Assembly: GCA_965223705.1 (NCBI GenBank)
Contig: OZ245015.1
Location: forward strand, 3,424,001-3,488,000
Origin: Myxococcota bacterium
GTDB lineage: Bacteria > Myxococcota_A > UBA9160 > UBA6930
Length of the DNA stretch: 64,000 bases
Reading direction: 5' to 3'
In this document: in pieces, positions 19,911-24,984 of the stretch
Layout of the letters: each line of letters starts with the position of its first letter
How positions within the stretch are numbered: position 1 is the stretch's first letter
Program-made: the position numbers and the translations under genes
The notes under the pieces: generated by a model
What the model saw: the letters and a program-made list of their open reading frames with translations, nothing else
Told to the model about the DNA's origin: nothing
The model's database searches: none

Positions 19911-20019
19911 AGTCCTTCTTCACCTCGAGTGAGTCGTGAGAGTCTAACAAGCGCGCGAGAGTCGTGAGCGAGGGGTGTTACAGTGGCGCCGCCCCCACGA
20001 CTCGAACTCGGAGACCAAA

Positions 20020-20589
20020 GTGCCACAGCCCGAGACGCCCGAACCGGTTGCGCGATTCGTCGAACGGGTAACGCAGTCGCTCGAAAGCTCAAAAGCCGAG
20101 GAGAAGTTCCTGCCCCGAATTGGCGAAGCCATGCAAGCATTGGTTTCGACCGATGACTGGCTCCCCGAGGATCTCGCCCGACCGCACCCACAGCACTACC
20201 AGCAATACCTGATCTACGCAGCGCCGGACGACCGGTTCTCTCTGGTCAGCTTCGTATGGGGGCCCGGCCAAGAAACGCCGATTCACGATCACACCGTCTG
20301 GGGCGTAATCGGGGTCCTGCGCGGCGCCGAGATCTCGCAACGCTACGAGATCTCGGTCGACGGGGTCCCTTGCGCGACGGGTGACGCTGTCGAACTCGCG
20401 CCCGGTGCCGTCGAGTTCGTTTCACCGCGGGTCGGCGACGTGCACAAAGTCAGAAATCCGCGGAGTGCACCTTCGATCAGCATTCACGCCTACGGCGCCA
20501 ACATCGGCAAGGTGCGGCGCCACGTATTCCCGCCCGAGGGCGGCGCTCCGAAGCTATTCGTCTCGGGGTATACAAACGGCGATCACTAG
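20020..20589 (+). CDS. Gln-type cysteine dioxygenase family (3-mercaptopropionate dioxygenase-like)
   Basis: 'HYQQYLIY', 'FVWGPGQETPIHDHTVWG', 'DVHKV', 'SIHAYGANIG'. GTG 20020 follows GGAG. Confidence 0.9.
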   Translation: MPQPETPEPVARFVERVTQSLESSKAEEKFLPRIGEAMQALVSTDDWLPEDLARPHPQHYQQYLIYAAPDDRFSLVSFVWGPGQETPIHDHTVWGVIGVLRGAEISQRYEISVDGVPCATGDAVELAPGAVEFVSPRVGDVHKVRNPRSAPSISIHAYGANIGKVRRHVFPPEGGAPKLFVSGYTNGDH

Positions 20590-20601
20590 CCTGGATTCCC
20601 G

Positions 20602-22191
20602 ATGAACGTACGTGACTACGCGTGGGTCCGTTCGAAGCTGTTGCGGCGGGAAGAAATCGCATTCCTCGACGTACGAGAGGAAGCGCGCCACGCAGAGGGA
20701 CACCCCCTGTTCGCCGCGAACCTTCCCGCCACCCGTATCGAGCTCGACGCGTACACCAAGCTGCCGCGTCGCGATGCTCCAATCGTGACATTCGACGCTG
20801 GCGAGGGGCTCGCAGAGACGGCTGGCGAGCGCCTCGAGAACCTCGGATACGCCGATGTCAGTGTGTTCCGAGACGGACTCGAAGGCTGGAAGGCTGCCGG
20901 GGGCGAGGTGTTCATCGATGTCAATGTGCCGAGCAAAGCCTTTGGCGAGCTGATGGAATCCGTCTGCCGTACGCCTTCGTATTCGGCGGAGGAAGTTCAG
21001 GCGCTGATCGACGCCGGAGAAGACATCGTCATCGTCGATGTGCGCCGGTTCGACGAGTATCAGACGATGTGCATCCCCACGGCGATCCATGTGCCCGGAG
21101 CGGAGGTCGTGTTGCGGGCGCCCGAGTTCGCTCCTCGCCCGGATACCCGGGTCGTCGTCAACTGTGCCGGGAGAACCCGCAGCTTGATCGGCTGCCAATC
21201 GCTCATTCACGCCCAGATCCCGAACCCCGTTGTGGCGCTGCGCAACGGAACGATCGGGTGGACCCTAGCGGGCCAGTCGTTGGACTTCGGACAAGCACGA
21301 ACTTCCGTCGCCTCGTTGCCAGAAACATCGAAAGAAGTCGCGCGTCGCCGCGCCCGGGCTGTGGCGGACCGGGCTTCCGTAAAACGCGTCGACACGGAAA
21401 CCCTCGCGCGCTGGTCTCAGCAGGAGGGCCGCACGACCTACGCTTTCGATGTCCGCACCGAAACGGAATACGCGGACGGCCACGTTCCGGGGTTCCTCTC
21501 GGTCCCCGGTGGTCAACTCGTCCAGGAGACGGAGATGTACGCCCCCGTCCGAGGCGCGCGAATCGCACTGGCCGACGATGACGGCGTGCGCGCCAACATG
21601 TCGGCCTCGTGGCTCGCCCAGATGGCCTGGGACGTCTACGTCGTCGATGGCCTGCAAGCGTTGGATTTCAGCGAAGAGGGTCCGTGGGTCCCACCTCTTC
21701 CGCCGCTGCCCAACAACCGCAGAGTCACCCCCGACGCGGCACGTGAGTGGCTACTCGCGTGCGAAGCGACCGTCGTGGATGTCGCAAAGTTCGCTGAGTT
21801 CAGGACCGGCCACGTTCCGGGCGCGTGGTACATGCTCCGTTCCGAACTCTCCAAAGCCGTCCCGCTGCTCCCGAACACTCCGCGCTATGTCGTAACGAGC
21901 GGCGATGGCCTATTGGCAGAGCTCGTCGCTCCGGAACTCGCCCCACGGGTCGAGGGTGAGGTCAACGTGCTGGAAGGCGGAACCTCCGCGTGGGCGCAGG
22001 CGGGCCATCCTTTGGAATCCGGTGAGGTCCACTTGGCTTCCTCGCCCATCGACCGCTACCGGAGACCCTACGAGGGAACCGACGCGAGTCCCGAAGCGAT
22101 GCAGGCGTATCTCGATTGGGAGTTCGGGCTCATCGAGCAACTCGAGCGCGACGGAACCCATCACTTCAAACCCATGCCGCCCGCGAGATGA
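20602..22191 (+). CDS. Multi-domain (four-domain) rhodanese-related sulfurtransferase
   Basis: Repeated 'DVR..E...GH.PG' modules, active loop 'NCAGRTRS', C-terminal 'RYRRPYEG...MQAYLDWE'. Confidence 0.9.
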   Translation: MNVRDYAWVRSKLLRREEIAFLDVREEARHAEGHPLFAANLPATRIELDAYTKLPRRDAPIVTFDAGEGLAETAGERLENLGYADVSVFRDGLEGWKAAGGEVFIDVNVPSKAFGELMESVCRTPSYSAEEVQALIDAGEDIVIVDVRRFDEYQTMCIPTAIHVPGAEVVLRAPEFAPRPDTRVVVNCAGRTRSLIGCQSLIHAQIPNPVVALRNGTIGWTLAGQSLDFGQARTSVASLPETSKEVARRRARAVADRASVKRVDTETLARWSQQEGRTTYAFDVRTETEYADGHVPGFLSVPGGQLVQETEMYAPVRGARIALADDDGVRANMSASWLAQMAWDVYVVDGLQALDFSEEGPWVPPLPPLPNNRRVTPDAAREWLLACEATVVDVAKFAEFRTGHVPGAWYMLRSELSKAVPLLPNTPRYVVTSGDGLLAELVAPELAPRVEGEVNVLEGGTSAWAQAGHPLESGEVHLASSPIDRYRRPYEGTDASPEAMQAYLDWEFGLIEQLERDGTHHFKPMPPAR

Positions 22192-22206
22192 CACACGGAG
22201 GATCGT

Positions 22207-22698
22207 ATGCCCGGTTCGCTTACCACACAGGATCAGCTTGACATTGCCCACACCATTCAAGAGGTAGCGAGGGCTTTTGACGAAAAGCTGCATCACGAGC
22301 TGTTGCCGACAGTATTCACCGACGACGCGAGCGTCTTGTACCGCCTACGCGGACAACGCTTCGACTTTTCCATGCCGGAAGGTCCCGGCAAAGTGAAATC
22401 CTTCCACGATCTCTGTTACTGGACCCAACACCTGGTGTCGCCTCATGTCCTCTCGATCGACGGCGACCGCGCGACTGCCAGAACGCCGGTGCATGCCCTG
22501 CATCTACAGGTTCGAAACGACGGCTCACACAACCAATGGGTCATCGGCGCCGTCTACCACGACGAACTCGTGCGCCGAGACAACCGGTGGCGAATCGCCA
22601 AGCGCCTCGCGCTCTGTCCTTACGTGGAAGGCGACTTGCTGACCCGCGGCGTCCGGTCCTTCCCGAACTTGCCGGATCTCGATCGCGAAACGATTTAG
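22207..22698 (+). CDS. NTF2-like / SnoaL_4 protein
   Basis: 'VFTDDA', 'TQHLVS', 'IDGDRATAR', 'YHDELVRRDNRWRIAKR'. Confidence 0.85.
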   Translation: MPGSLTTQDQLDIAHTIQEVARAFDEKLHHELLPTVFTDDASVLYRLRGQRFDFSMPEGPGKVKSFHDLCYWTQHLVSPHVLSIDGDRATARTPVHALHLQVRNDGSHNQWVIGAVYHDELVRRDNRWRIAKRLALCPYVEGDLLTRGVRSFPNLPDLDRETI

Positions 22699-22711: not shown

Positions 22712-23224
22712 CTAGGGCAGGCGGATTTCGAGGAGCAACCATCGATTCGAATCGTCGAGGGGCTCTGCGCGGATGGCTCGAGTCGGGCGCACAGTCAGCT
22801 CCCTCCGGGCTTCGGTGATCCGTTGAACGACGTCTCCTCGCTCATTCTGGTGGACGAGCTCAACGCGAAGCTCACGACGGGGTCGCTCCTGAAGGACGGT
22901 GATGGCGAGTTCTCCATCCGGGAGAGCCAATCGGAGCTTCTGATCGAAGGTTGTGCCGCGGTCGATGGACGCTATGTGCTCGACTTCGCGCGCCTCGGCC
23001 AGTTCTGAAAGGCGTTCGAAGCGGGCGCGCTCGGTGGCTTCCGCGAGCTCCTCGCCCAGCTCAAGCGCGACGTCGAGGATCTGCGCTTTCACGATCAGCG
23101 ATCGCGCTCCGGGTTTTCCGATAGGGATCCGGTACTGCGTATAGCCCGGCTGGGAGACAAGCCCCGCGGAAGCAACCACAAGCAGGGCGAAGGCGGACGG
23201 AAGCCAGCGAAAGAGACGGAACAT
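22712..23224 (-). CDS. Hypothetical exported protein
   Basis: ATG 23224 follows AAAGGAG. Sec-like signal 'MFRLFRWLPSAFALLVVASAGL'. No family recognised. Confidence 0.55.
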   Translation of the reverse strand: MFRLFRWLPSAFALLVVASAGLVSQPGYTQYRIPIGKPGARSLIVKAQILDVALELGEELAEATERARFERLSELAEAREVEHIASIDRGTTFDQKLRLALPDGELAITVLQERPRRELRVELVHQNERGDVVQRITEARRELTVRPTRAIRAEPLDDSNRWLLLEIRLP

Positions 23225-23332
23225 CGGAGCTCCTTTTCGTTGCCCATTCTGACGCCGGAGGCTCGCTAGAAGTTCACCACGACGAGGCTCTCGACTTCGA
23301 TAACATGCGGGCTGCCTGCGGAGGAGGATCAC

Positions 23333-23770
23333 ATGGGTGAGCCGACGATGGCCTACAGCGGCCGTTGCTACAGCAGCGGCATTACCGGGCGTTCCATCTG
23401 TAACGCACGACACCACCACTTTGTGAGCGACGATACCGGCGGCGATGCGGTCGGCGCGGGCGAGCTGTTCTGCGCAGGGCTCTCCGCCTGCGCAGTGAAT
23501 CTCACCGAACGGATCGCGCGCACTGAAGAGCGTCCGCTCCACAGTATGGACGTCACGGTCAGCGCGTGGCGCGATATGGAAAAGGTCCCGAGCGACCTCA
23601 CCCTGTATGACGCCATCCGGATCGAGATCGAGCTCTGGGGCGTTACCGACAAGGACGCGGAGTACCTGGTAGAAACCTGGAAGTCTCGCTGACCCATCTA
23701 CGGCTCAGTCGCGGTCGCGACTGCAGAGACAACCGTCAAAGTCGTTTCACATCAGCAAGAGCGGCCCTAG
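23333..23770 (+). CDS. OsmC/Ohr-family protein, probable selenoprotein (Sec at TGA 23690-23692)
   Basis: 'AGELFCAGLSAC' carries the first OsmC Cys. Read-through gives 'WKSR-U-PIYGSV', matching the second-Cys 'CP(I/V)' motif. The frame continues to TAG 23768-23770. SECIS-like hairpin downstream. Confidence 0.85.
23704..23726 (+). promoter_or_regulatory. Putative bacterial SECIS element (OsmC)
   Basis: CT-CAGTCGC-GGTC-GCGACTG-c-AG hairpin starting after an 11-nt spacer from UGA. The GGUC apical loop resembles E. coli fdhF. Confidence 0.75.
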
Positions 23771-23784
23771 CCGAAAGGAATCCC

Positions 23785-24984
23785 ATGCCTGCACCGAGTT
23801 TCATTGCGAGCGCTCCGGAAGAGGTCGGGCTCGACTCCGAAAAGATTGCGGCGCTCTTCGCACGCGCCGAGCGAGACGTTGCGGAAGGGCTCCTCCCGGC
23901 CGTCCAAGTGGCGATCGCGCGAAACGGGAAGATCGGTGCGATGCGCACGTTTGGATCCGCGGTGCAGGACGGTGAAGAGCGCACCGCCGATGACGAGACA
24001 AACTTCGTCGCGATGTCGGCCACGAAGGCCGTGGTCGCCTCCGCCGCGTGGATCCTGATGCAGGAGGGAAAGCTCAGCCAGAAAGATCGCGTCGTCGACT
24101 ATCTGCCGGAGTACGGGAGCTTCGATAAGGCCGCGACGACGCTCGAGCACCTGCTCGCCCACACCGCGGGGATTCCCTTTGCGCGGCATCGAACCGATGA
24201 TTGGGGTGATCCGCAGAAGCTCCGGCAACGCTTCGCGGACTGGCAACTGGAGCATCCGCCCGGAGAGCAGTTTCGCTACCACCTCGCCGCAAATTTTCTT
24301 CCGATCGCGATGATCGTCGAGCAGATCAGCGGGCAGCCCCTAGCCGAGTTCATTCGGACGCGGATCGCCGAGCCACTCGGCTTGCCGGGTCTGCGCCTCG
24401 GTCTTCGGTCGCAGGACGACGTACGGGTCGCGGACCTCGTGTGGGTGGGAACGAGCCTCACCTCCGAGGACTACGAAGCGATGGGAATTCCAGGCAATCC
24501 TGTGATCGCCGCGATCGACGAAAAGCTGGTGCTCGAGTTCAACGAACGTCCCATTCGAGAGCTCGGTTATCCCGCTGGCGGGCTCATCACCACGGCGGGC
24601 GACCTCGCCCTGTTCTACCAGGCACTCCTGGCCGATGGCTTGGCACACGACGGAACCGAGGTCTGGCGCAAAGAGACGTTGGTCGATGCCAGGCGGATTC
24701 GGACGGGGGACTTGCGGGATCCGGTGATCGGGTGCCGCGCCAACCGCGGCCTCGGCATCGTGATTGCCGGCGACGACGGCCAGGCCAACATGCGGAGCTT
24801 CGGGCGCACCAACTCGCCCGAGTCGTTCGGACACCCGGGATTCGGAGGCCAGTGCGCCTGGGCCGACCCCGCGACGGGAATCTCGTTCGGGTACTTGACG
24901 AACGGCTACGACCGCAACGAGATCCGAATGGCGCGCCGCCAGGTCGCGGTCTCGAGCTTGGCGGCGTCTTGCGCGCCTTACTGA
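23785..24984 (+). CDS. Serine hydrolase, beta-lactamase (family VIII esterase) fold
   Basis: SxxK 'MSATK', 'LLAHTAG', 'PGEQFRYH', 'FGHPGFGG..AWADP'. Confidence 0.9.
   Translation: MPAPSFIASAPEEVGLDSEKIAALFARAERDVAEGLLPAVQVAIARNGKIGAMRTFGSAVQDGEERTADDETNFVAMSATKAVVASAAWILMQEGKLSQKDRVVDYLPEYGSFDKAATTLEHLLAHTAGIPFARHRTDDWGDPQKLRQRFADWQLEHPPGEQFRYHLAANFLPIAMIVEQISGQPLAEFIRTRIAEPLGLPGLRLGLRSQDDVRVADLVWVGTSLTSEDYEAMGIPGNPVIAAIDEKLVLEFNERPIRELGYPAGGLITTAGDLALFYQALLADGLAHDGTEVWRKETLVDARRIRTGDLRDPVIGCRANRGLGIVIAGDDGQANMRSFGRTNSPESFGHPGFGGQCAWADPATGISFGYLTNGYDRNEIRMARRQVAVSSLAASCAPY

What the first reader, a model, noticed from the sequence alone, without database searches (positions are those of the whole stretch)
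23333..23770. Hidden selenoprotein: OsmC-like protein with Sec at the second catalytic Cys position
Seen: the ORF track stops at TGA 23690, exactly where OsmC/Ohr proteins have the second Cys of 'CP(I/V)'. Read-through gives R-U-P-I-Y-G-S-V and 25 codons after the UGA to TAG, ending 14 nt before the next gene (145 aa, normal OsmC size). A hairpin with a GGUC loop follows. Established: bacterial Sec insertion needs a SECIS just 3' of UGA, and OsmC-like selenoproteins have been predicted computationally. Inference: Sec at the C-terminal site, usually the resolving Cys, is mechanistically odd and may mark a distinct subfamily.
Basis: partly seen in the sequence, partly recalled or inferred. Interest (0 to 1): 0.72.

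Follow-up and report, generated by a model that had tools for sequence, protein, structure and literature searches.

The report
OsmC-fold selenoprotein, selenium at second cysteine
The apparent stop codon inside this small antioxidant-type gene is very likely read as the rare amino acid selenocysteine, placing selenium at the second active-site position, the reverse of the published OsmC-like selenoproteins, in a widespread bacterial family that gene callers usually cut short at that codon.

Summary
Observation confirmed. ORF 23333-23770 has an in-frame TGA at codon 120, aligned with the second (resolving) Cys of Ohr/OsmC. The genome has selA, selB, selD and tRNA-Sec. In 188 family loci that codon is TGA (157) or TGC/TGT (31), nothing else, and the frame continues 19-39 codons (one cut locus aside). 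A hairpin with GU at +22/+23 is kept in 113 of 116 distinct TGA sequences, with compensatory changes at silent sites, and in 0 of 29 Cys sequences. Sec insertion is therefore very likely (about 0.96). The published OsmC-like selenoprotein (UxxT, NF041052) has Sec at the first Cys; this protein scores 15 bits against a cut-off of 95. It is a separate family, about 26-64% identical to this protein, seen in Pseudomonadota, Chloroflexota and others, and not listed in the catalogues I searched. Cys53 is invariant, but Ohr's catalytic Arg and Glu are not in register. My preferred mechanism (0.45, untested) is swapped roles: Sec120 attacks and Cys53 resolves. This scan reported the same family before in at least seven windows of other genomes. 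Verdict: new variant of a known kind.

The parts
23320..23327 (+). Shine-Dalgarno-like GGAGGAGG, 5 nt before the ATG
   Evidence: sequence
23333..23770 (+). OsmC/Ohr-fold gene, 145 aa with UGA read as Sec; gene callers stop at 119 aa
   Evidence: AlphaFold model pLDDT 84; best fold matches are OsmC-like proteins, Z 12.2, rmsd 2.0 over 114 residues
23390..23392 (+). Arg20, invariant family arginine (G-R motif); three residues after the place of Ohr's catalytic Arg
   Evidence: 178 of 178 distinct family proteins; register from the alignment of family member P0179 to P. aeruginosa and A. baumannii Ohr
23399..23401 (+). Cys23, third cysteine, kept only in the close clade
   Evidence: 150 of 151 close proteins; not among the residues listed for the 27 distant ones; 150 of 178 overall
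23462..23464 (+). Glu44, nine residues before Cys53 (YhfA-type spacing; Ohr's catalytic Glu aligns with Gly43)
   Evidence: 175 of 178 Glu, and no Glu at 43 in 178
23489..23491 (+). Cys53, first conserved cysteine (peroxidatic position of Ohr)
   Evidence: 178 of 178; alignment
23690..23692 (+). In-frame TGA, predicted Sec120, at the second conserved cysteine (resolving position of Ohr)
   Evidence: TGA 157, TGC 18, TGT 13 of 188 loci
23706..23723 (+). SECIS-type hairpin inside the coding sequence; GU at 23714-23715 (+22/+23); encodes S-V-A-V-A-T
   Evidence: E. coli fdhF SECIS has G23/U24 (PMC8659212, passages)
23768..23770 (+). True stop codon TAG
   Evidence: homologs stop 19-39 codons after the site, mostly 25-26
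23785..24984 (+). Downstream beta-lactamase-fold serine hydrolase gene, 14 nt after the stop; probably co-transcribed here, not a conserved partner
   Evidence: PF00144; best NCBIfam match LipE, far below cut-off; not among the 45 largest neighbour clusters

Best explanation
The gene very likely encodes a 145-residue OsmC/Ohr-fold selenoprotein, predicted to work as a dimeric peroxide reductase in which selenocysteine 120, at the second active-site position, likely attacks the substrate and cysteine 53 likely resolves it. Expression (about 0.96): SelB, carrying Sec-tRNA, would bind the GU-tipped hairpin 14-31 nt after the UGA and insert Sec. Catalysis (inferred): the ionised selenol reduces a hydroperoxide to give Se-OH; Cys53 condenses with it to a Se-S bond; a cellular dithiol (lipoylated protein or thioredoxin, not identified) reduces the bond. 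Shown: sequence anatomy, Sec machinery, Cys/TGA pairing, hairpin covariation, loss of Ohr's Arg and Glu from their places. Predicted: fold and dimer. Inferred: Sec insertion itself, a Cys53-Sec120 redox pair (about 0.85), peroxide as substrate, and the swapped roles.
For: Machinery: selA, selB, selD, tRNA-Sec 78 bits with UCA anticodon. Pairing: only TGA/TGC/TGT at the site in 188 of 188 loci; 65 of 87 database homologs end exactly before the site and 17 continue C-P-L-Y-G. Hairpin plus GU in 113 of 116 distinct TGA sequences and 0 of 29 Cys sequences; three pairs join third codon positions and covary, with Watson-Crick counts 104, 115 and 115 of 116 against shuffle means 67.5, 109.2 and 80.6. 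selB in 66 of 69 genomes with the TGA form; all 28 family-bearing genomes in a Chloroflexota sample have selB, against 228 of 301 overall. Redox pair: Cys53 in 178 of 178, aligned to Ohr's pair. Dimer of the natural Cys homolog P0006: score 0.91, best control 0.02; mark reached by 20 of 30 solved pairs and 1 of 23 single chains; runs agree 97%, pLDDT at least 92 (like complexes are solved, so this may be from memory). Role swap: no Arg at the place of Ohr's catalytic Arg and no Glu at the place of its Glu in 178 proteins, so the residues that activate the first Cys in Ohr (PMC5962072, passages) are not in register; Cys/Sec pairs generally mark the catalytic residue (PMC2673044, passage); residue 120 sits at the start of helix 121-129 after an Arg kept in 167 of 178.
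Against: No protein, RNA or activity data. In every characterised Ohr I read about, the first Cys is peroxidatic (PMC4486171, PMC5962072, passages). One paper calls the second Cys buried and inaccessible to an alkylating probe (PMC5384416); another calls its setting hydrophilic (PMC4486171). The published Sec-OsmC family, also YhfA-like, puts Sec at the first site. Invariant Arg20 could fold back and replace Ohr's Arg; I had no coordinates to measure this. Peroxidase activity of Ohr-like proteins is itself disputed (TvOsmC) or untested (YhfA). All 10 genomes with the Cys form also have selB, so Sec is dispensable in some lineages. The column shuffles ignore relatedness.
Confidence: 0.45

Rival explanations
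1. Selenoprotein with Ohr's usual order: Cys53 attacks the peroxide and Sec120 is a true resolving residue that speeds Se-S formation, guards Cys53 from over-oxidation and is the atom the reductant attacks.
For: Positional homology; Ohr mutagenesis (PMC4486171). PDB titles 6EBD and 6EBG show first-Cys mutants of OhrB with dihydrolipoamide; that the reductant bonds to the second Cys is my recall, not found. Invariant Arg20 and Glu44 lie at the predicted dimer interface and might activate Cys53.
Against: Ohr's Arg and Glu are not in register. Sec usually marks the attacking residue. Se-S bonds have a low redox potential and were hard to reduce in engineered MsrB (PMC1278935, passages).
Confidence: 0.3
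2. Selenoprotein, but not a peroxidase: the Cys53-Sec120 pair acts as a disulfide or persulfide reductase or in sulfur/selenium transfer.
For: Ohr-like/YhfA proteins lack the peroxidase Arg and Glu and have no established activity. A four-domain rhodanese lies near the gene in this window and in 16 Dehalococcoidia loci (35% identity between the two compared); a cysteine-dioxygenase-like gene precedes it here (weak Pfam match).
Against: No neighbour is shared across phyla; the large clusters are lineage synteny. Rhodaneses are common. Closest characterised relatives by sequence are Ohr peroxidases.
Confidence: 0.2
3. The TGA is a real stop, a sequencing error or a pseudogene lesion, giving a 119-residue protein with one active-site cysteine.
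For: Standard annotation; NCBI holds 119-aa entries such as MCB1738914.1 and MYA62825.1. No expression data.
Against: Never TAA or TAG at the site in 188 loci. Downstream codons change mostly silently. The lost part is helix 121-129 and strand 132-140 of the fold, part of the predicted interface. The hairpin tracks the TGA. Contigs keep TGA.
Confidence: 0.04
4. UGA is read as another residue (Trp, Gly or Cys) through a changed genetic code or non-specific read-through.
For: UGA reassignment exists in some bacteria (my knowledge).
Against: TGA is also the terminal stop in 19 of 134 TGA-form loci with a stop in view. Homologs never have TGG or Gly at the site. Dedicated tRNA-Sec, SelB and a SECIS-type hairpin are present.
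Confidence: 0.01

Closest known systems
OsmC-like selenoprotein of the Sargasso Sea and GOS surveys (PMC1088965, PMC2398784; motif UxxT; representative MCS5647933.1; NCBIfam NF041052 OsmC_like_Se)
   Same: OsmC fold (PF02566), one Sec paired with one Cys about 65-70 residues apart, Cys homologs exist, predicted only computationally.
   Different: Sec is at the first site with Cys at the second; here the reverse. This protein scores 15.4 bits against a cut-off of 95. Of 19 NF041052 loci examined, 12 have U at the first site, 3 have C, 4 were not extracted. The two families occur side by side in the same genomes.
Ohr organic hydroperoxide reductase (X. fastidiosa 1ZB8, P. aeruginosa 1N2F, C. violaceum OhrB 6EB4, A. 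baumannii 9JX6; TIGR03561)
   Same: Same fold and cysteine pair; C-P-x-Y/C-P-Y at the second site; closest solved relatives by sequence (E 1.6e-4).
   Different: About 20% identity; 24.6 bits against cut-off 88.85; catalytic Arg and Glu not in register; Sec in place of the resolving Cys.
Ohr-like/YhfA group (E. coli YhfA 1ML8, Aq_1549 2E8C, M. pneumoniae 1LQL, lsei_0423 2QL8)
   Same: Best structural matches (Z 12.2, 11.4, 11.0, 10.3); acidic residue nine before the first Cys; Ohr Arg and Glu missing.
   Different: Own invariant G-R motif and N-terminus; Sec; no detectable close relative among solved structures. The group is a loose one that awaits classification (PMC5384416).
E. coli fdhF SECIS element
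   Same: Hairpin in the coding region just after the UGA with an essential apical GU (G23, U24; PMC8659212).
   Different: GU at +22/+23 here as counted from the first base after UGA (numbering conventions may differ by a base); no bulged U17 in this stem.

Membership tests
Bacterial selenoprotein | selA, selB, selD and tRNA-Sec in the genome | tested here: met
Bacterial selenoprotein | In-frame UGA aligned to Cys of homologs, conservation past the UGA | tested here: met
Bacterial selenoprotein | SECIS hairpin just 3' of the UGA with apical G/GU | tested here: met
   113 of 116 TGA sequences, 0 of 29 Cys sequences; bSECISearch itself was not run
Bacterial selenoprotein | Selenium shown in the protein | not testable with these tools
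   needs 75Se or mass spectrometry
OsmC/Ohr superfamily (PF02566) | Profile score above cut-off and OsmC fold | tested here: met
   37.6 vs 27.5 bits
OsmC/Ohr superfamily (PF02566) | Two conserved Cys about 60 residues apart | tested here: met
   C53 and U/C120, 67 apart
OsmC/Ohr superfamily (PF02566) | Homodimer with active sites at the interface | tested here: inconclusive
   model of Cys homolog P0006 supports it, 0.91 vs best control 0.02; may be from memory of solved dimers
OsmC-like selenoprotein NF041052 (UxxT) | Score at or above 95 bits | tested here: not met
   15.4 bits; two distant family loci 32-35 bits
OsmC-like selenoprotein NF041052 (UxxT) | Sec at the first Cys in UxxT | tested here: not met
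   first site is TGC/TGT in 161 of 161 loci; motif here is U-P-I-Y
Ohr subfamily (TIGR03561) | Score above cut-off | tested here: not met
   24.6 vs 88.85 bits
Ohr subfamily (TIGR03561) | Catalytic Arg in the first loop and Glu ten residues before the first Cys | tested here: not met
   by sequence register: 0 of 178 Arg at 17, 0 of 178 Glu at 43; a spatial substitute such as Arg20 is not excluded
OsmC subfamily proper (TIGR03562) | Model match, and Arg in the loop before helix 1 with the conserved Glu | tested here: not met
   no match for this protein, 1 of 59 family members at E 0.005; residues 33-43 hold no Arg
Ohr-like/YhfA group | Both Cys positions kept, Ohr/OsmC Arg and Glu absent | tested here: met
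   definition from PMC5384416 and PMC8945050 (passages)
Thiol/selenol peroxidase | Dithiol-dependent hydroperoxide reduction | not testable with these tools
   needs an assay

The most novel reading that the evidence does not exclude
An old, multi-phylum family of OsmC-fold selenoenzymes has swapped the catalytic roles of its two active-site residues: selenocysteine at the canonical resolving position is the nucleophile and replaces the Arg/Glu activation of Ohr. The OsmC fold would then have recruited selenium twice, once at each site, both versions living in the same genomes, and repeated Sec-to-Cys reversions in Sec-competent hosts give natural pairs for testing what selenium buys.
Probability: 0.35. 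Interest if true: 0.72.

Novelty: new variant of a known kind. Interest (0 to 1): 0.52.

Why it matters
It adds a selenoprotein subfamily that the 119-entry 2026 catalogue does not list; that catalogue counts a different Sec position as a distinct subfamily (PMC13188914, section 7). The family is common: 293 confirmed matches in the species-representative genome collection for the close clade alone and 28 of 301 sampled Chloroflexota genomes. Most database entries lack the second active-site residue. It also tests the working rule that Sec marks the attacking residue: either Ohr-like proteins can run with swapped roles, or Sec can be selected at a resolving position. Either answer bears on the unsolved function of the YhfA/Ohr-like group. 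The SECIS is an unusually clean case of an RNA signal dictating protein sequence (V-A-V-A-T in 114 of 116 TGA sequences, 0 of 29 Cys sequences). Interest is tempered because OsmC-like selenoproteins have been predicted since 2005 and no activity is shown.

Tried and rejected
Single-protein scan of genome contigs found no relative; the alignment scan did. No family member found in 40 relatives (single query) or in 300 other genomes sampled from the host's phylum (alignment). No paralog in the host genome; its two other OsmC-type genes are different. Folding energy alone does not single out the hairpin. No sigma-70 promoter match and no informative terminator. No RNA holder listed. GC profile shows no island. 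Neighbourhood gave no partner shared across phyla, and no lipoyl or thioredoxin partner among the 45 largest clusters (the first attempt, timed out). The expected split 'Cys form where Sec machinery is missing' was not found: 10 of 10 Cys-form genomes have selB. Three TGA-form genomes gave no selB match; two of them have selA matches, G068 has neither (completeness not given). My first idea that Arg20 equals Ohr's catalytic Arg was dropped. The ESM Atlas gave no result. The careful tree did not finish; the quick tree was used. No paper found on which Ohr cysteine bonds to lipoamide. Cys23 was rejected as a family-wide catalytic residue.

Full report
Observation. The ORF starts at ATG 23333 behind a strong Shine-Dalgarno sequence, and standard translation stops at TGA 23690-23692 after 119 residues. 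Read with TGA as Sec it gives 145 residues ending at TAG 23768-23770, with R-U-P-I-Y-G-S-V across the site. The next gene, a beta-lactamase-fold hydrolase, starts 14 nt later. The read-through protein matches Pfam OsmC above cut-off. Against solved Ohr proteins, Cys53 aligns with the first Cys and residue 120 with the Cys of C-P-Y. The AlphaFold model (pLDDT 84, residue 120 modelled as Cys) has the OsmC topology, and the part after the TGA supplies helix 121-129 and strand 132-140. Fold searches return Ohr/OsmC proteins; the best is Z 12.2, rmsd 2.0 over 114 residues. Contigs of four runs from three studies show no change at the TGA; one run is probably the source, and none is RNA.

Machinery. 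The 4.56 Mb genome (95% complete) has selA, selB, selD and a tRNA-Sec of 78 bits, cut-off 47, with a UCA anticodon.

Cys/TGA pairing. Of 87 protein hits, 65 end at W-K/Q-x-R just before the site (58 of them at 119 aa), 17 continue with C-P-L-Y-G, and 5 are otherwise broken or short. NCBI entries MCB1738914.1 and MYA62825.1 are 119-aa stubs. L185 was dropped as a duplicate of L061, and L213 and L214 as ordinary OsmC-like genes. The first two sets are biased towards close relatives and are partly redundant. With the window, 188 of 188 loci have TGA (157), TGC (18) or TGT (13) at the site; the frame then runs 19-39 codons, apart from one locus cut by its contig end. In the four codons after the TGA no second-position change occurs among 118 distinct sequences, and silent differences dominate through the hairpin. 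TGA is also the terminal stop in 19 of 134 TGA-form loci, so the code is not globally changed. A search of 1.84 billion cluster representatives gave 303 hits at E 0.001, and many of the listed distant ones end at the same place; I could not fetch their own DNA, but the Chloroflexota loci of similar distance show TGA in 22 of 27.

SECIS. The hairpin spans +14 to +31. It is unremarkable by folding energy but strongly selected. All pairs from +15:+30 to +21:+24 plus GU at +22/+23 are kept in 113 of 116 distinct TGA sequences and 0 of 29 Cys sequences; GU alone is 116 of 116 against 0 of 29. Three pairs join third codon positions and covary: +15:+30 is G-C 77, A-U 27, G-U 11; +18:+27 is C-G 112, U-A 3, U-G 1; +21:+24 is C-G 95, G-C 14, A-U 6. 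No shuffle of 2000 reached the observed counts, though shuffles ignore kinship; the Cys forms are the better control. The +21:+24 pair means the tip is a GU dinucleotide, recalling G23/U24 of E. coli fdhF (PMC8659212, passages). Chance is low: 52 of 92,945 TGA triplets in the genome have such a hairpin within one base of this place.

Distribution and history. TGA forms come from Pseudomonadota (32 loci), Chloroflexota (36) and Tectimicrobiota (1); Cys forms from Acidobacteriota (7) and Nitrospinota (1); three loci have no phylum given. selB was found in 66 of 69 TGA-form genomes and 10 of 10 Cys-form genomes. In a Chloroflexota sample all 28 family-bearing genomes have selB, against 228 of 301 overall (kin are not independent; the 228 includes unpublished G382, on which nothing else rests). 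A quick tree of 119 rows (residues before the site only; near-identical rows thinned; 19 Cys proteins added from searches) needs at least 14 Sec/Cys changes, 6 forced by well-supported branches, with Sec in most main branches. As the hairpin has the same place and core sequence throughout, one old Sec origin with repeated reversions is the simplest reading; it is inference, the tree is unrooted and weakly resolved. The gene was not found in 40 relatives or 300 phylum members searched, and the closest named proteins are gamma- and alphaproteobacterial (79%, 64%), so this copy was likely acquired sideways. No neighbour is shared across phyla.

Comparison with what is known. OsmC-like selenoproteins were predicted in the Sargasso Sea survey (PMC1088965; passages, tables and the supplement entries for OsmC) and GOS (PMC2398784; one table passage), always as UxxT. 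The 2022 review (PMC9312934; passages), the 2026 review (PMC13188914; section 7 parts 1-2 with the whole of Table 1) and deep-Sep (PMC12013277; passages and a search of 4 supplements) list only that form; PMC1976440 (one passage) names it only. Its sequences have U at the first site and C at the second. NCBIfam NF041052 members fetched here confirm this, and a joint alignment shows the two families as mirror images. This protein scores 15.4 bits on NF041052 (cut-off 95), and no NCBIfam model fits it. Paper searches found no description of Sec at the second site. The library holds only CC-licensed PMC papers and bioRxiv, and I did not read the GOS or 2026-review supplements, so absence from print is not proven. 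Earlier notes of this scan report the same family in at least seven windows of other genomes; I saw them after reaching this reading and do not count them as evidence.

Mechanism. In Ohr the first Cys, activated by Arg19 and Glu51, attacks the peroxide; the second resolves; lipoylated proteins reduce the disulfide (PMC5962072, PMC5384416, PMC4486171, PMC8945050; passages). Here Cys53 is invariant (178 of 178), so both atoms are needed. But Ohr's Glu aligns with Gly43 and its Arg with position 17, where none of 178 proteins has Glu or Arg; the invariant Arg20 lies three residues later and Glu44 has the YhfA spacing (the Arg register rests on one distant member's pairwise alignments). The family therefore sits in the Ohr-like/YhfA group. 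A dimer model of a natural Cys homolog passes (0.91, best control 0.02) with residues 18-21, 23, 39-57 and 117-130 at the interface, but gives no active-site distances. I favour swapped roles (0.45): a selenol needs little activation, and Sec usually marks the attacking residue (PMC2673044, passage). The usual order with Sec as resolving and reductant-facing atom stays close (0.30): the second Cys is called buried in one paper, and the sister family uses the first site; against it, Se-S bonds can be hard to reduce (PMC1278935, passages). A non-peroxidase role such as sulfur transfer gets 0.20, on the weak recurrence of a four-domain rhodanese nearby. A real stop or another residue gets 0.05 together.

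Verdict. A real and well-supported predicted selenoprotein, a new variant of a known kind: same fold as a catalogued family, opposite Sec position, separate lineage. Interest 0.52; 0.72 if the role swap is shown.

Noticed in passing
window 22712-23224 (-): Divergent ORF of about 170 aa from an internal ATG with a Shine-Dalgarno-like GGAG and a signal-peptide-like start; not scanned against families.
   Followed up: no
window 19975-22698 (+); L081:6480-8102: Cysteine-dioxygenase-like gene, four-domain rhodanese and SnoaL-like gene upstream; a related four-domain rhodanese (35% identity) lies downstream of the family gene in 16 Dehalococcoidia loci.
   Followed up: partly
L183:2210-2971 and 41 other loci: A RidA/L-PSP-domain gene of about 250 aa sits upstream on the same strand in 42 loci, within 300 nt in 41; the named ones are Chloroflexota.
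   Followed up: no
L216-L234 (e.g. G099: L083 and L219): Many Dehalococcoidia genomes carry both OsmC-fold selenoprotein types, Sec-first (NF041052) and Sec-second.
   Followed up: partly
P0008, P0017: Cys-form proteins that still read V-A-V-A-T; P0008 is identical to TGA-form L072 before the site. Very recent Sec-to-Cys change or a base-call error; DNA not seen.
   Followed up: no
G000:C1:22501-23403: The host's selD lies in a 736-aa open frame, fused behind an N-terminal domain that looks like a flavoprotein oxidoreductase, with Cys (C-G-G-C-A-A-K) at the catalytic loop; selB is about 2 kb away, selA and tRNA-Sec are elsewhere.
   Followed up: no
G044:C1:166082-167198; G068: G044 has selA in four pieces and no selB match; G068 has neither, yet both carry the TGA form with an intact hairpin. 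Assembly gaps or errors are likely.
   Followed up: partly
Chloroflexota sample G120-G419: selB matches in 228 of 301 genomes, a high share for a phylum.
   Followed up: no
run X5, window 23719-23900: A related organism from another study keeps the OsmC-type gene next to the same hydrolase gene.
   Followed up: no
P0172, P0176, P0219, P0231: Long proteins (370-714 aa) with two to four stretches matching the family profile: possible tandem or fused forms.
   Followed up: no
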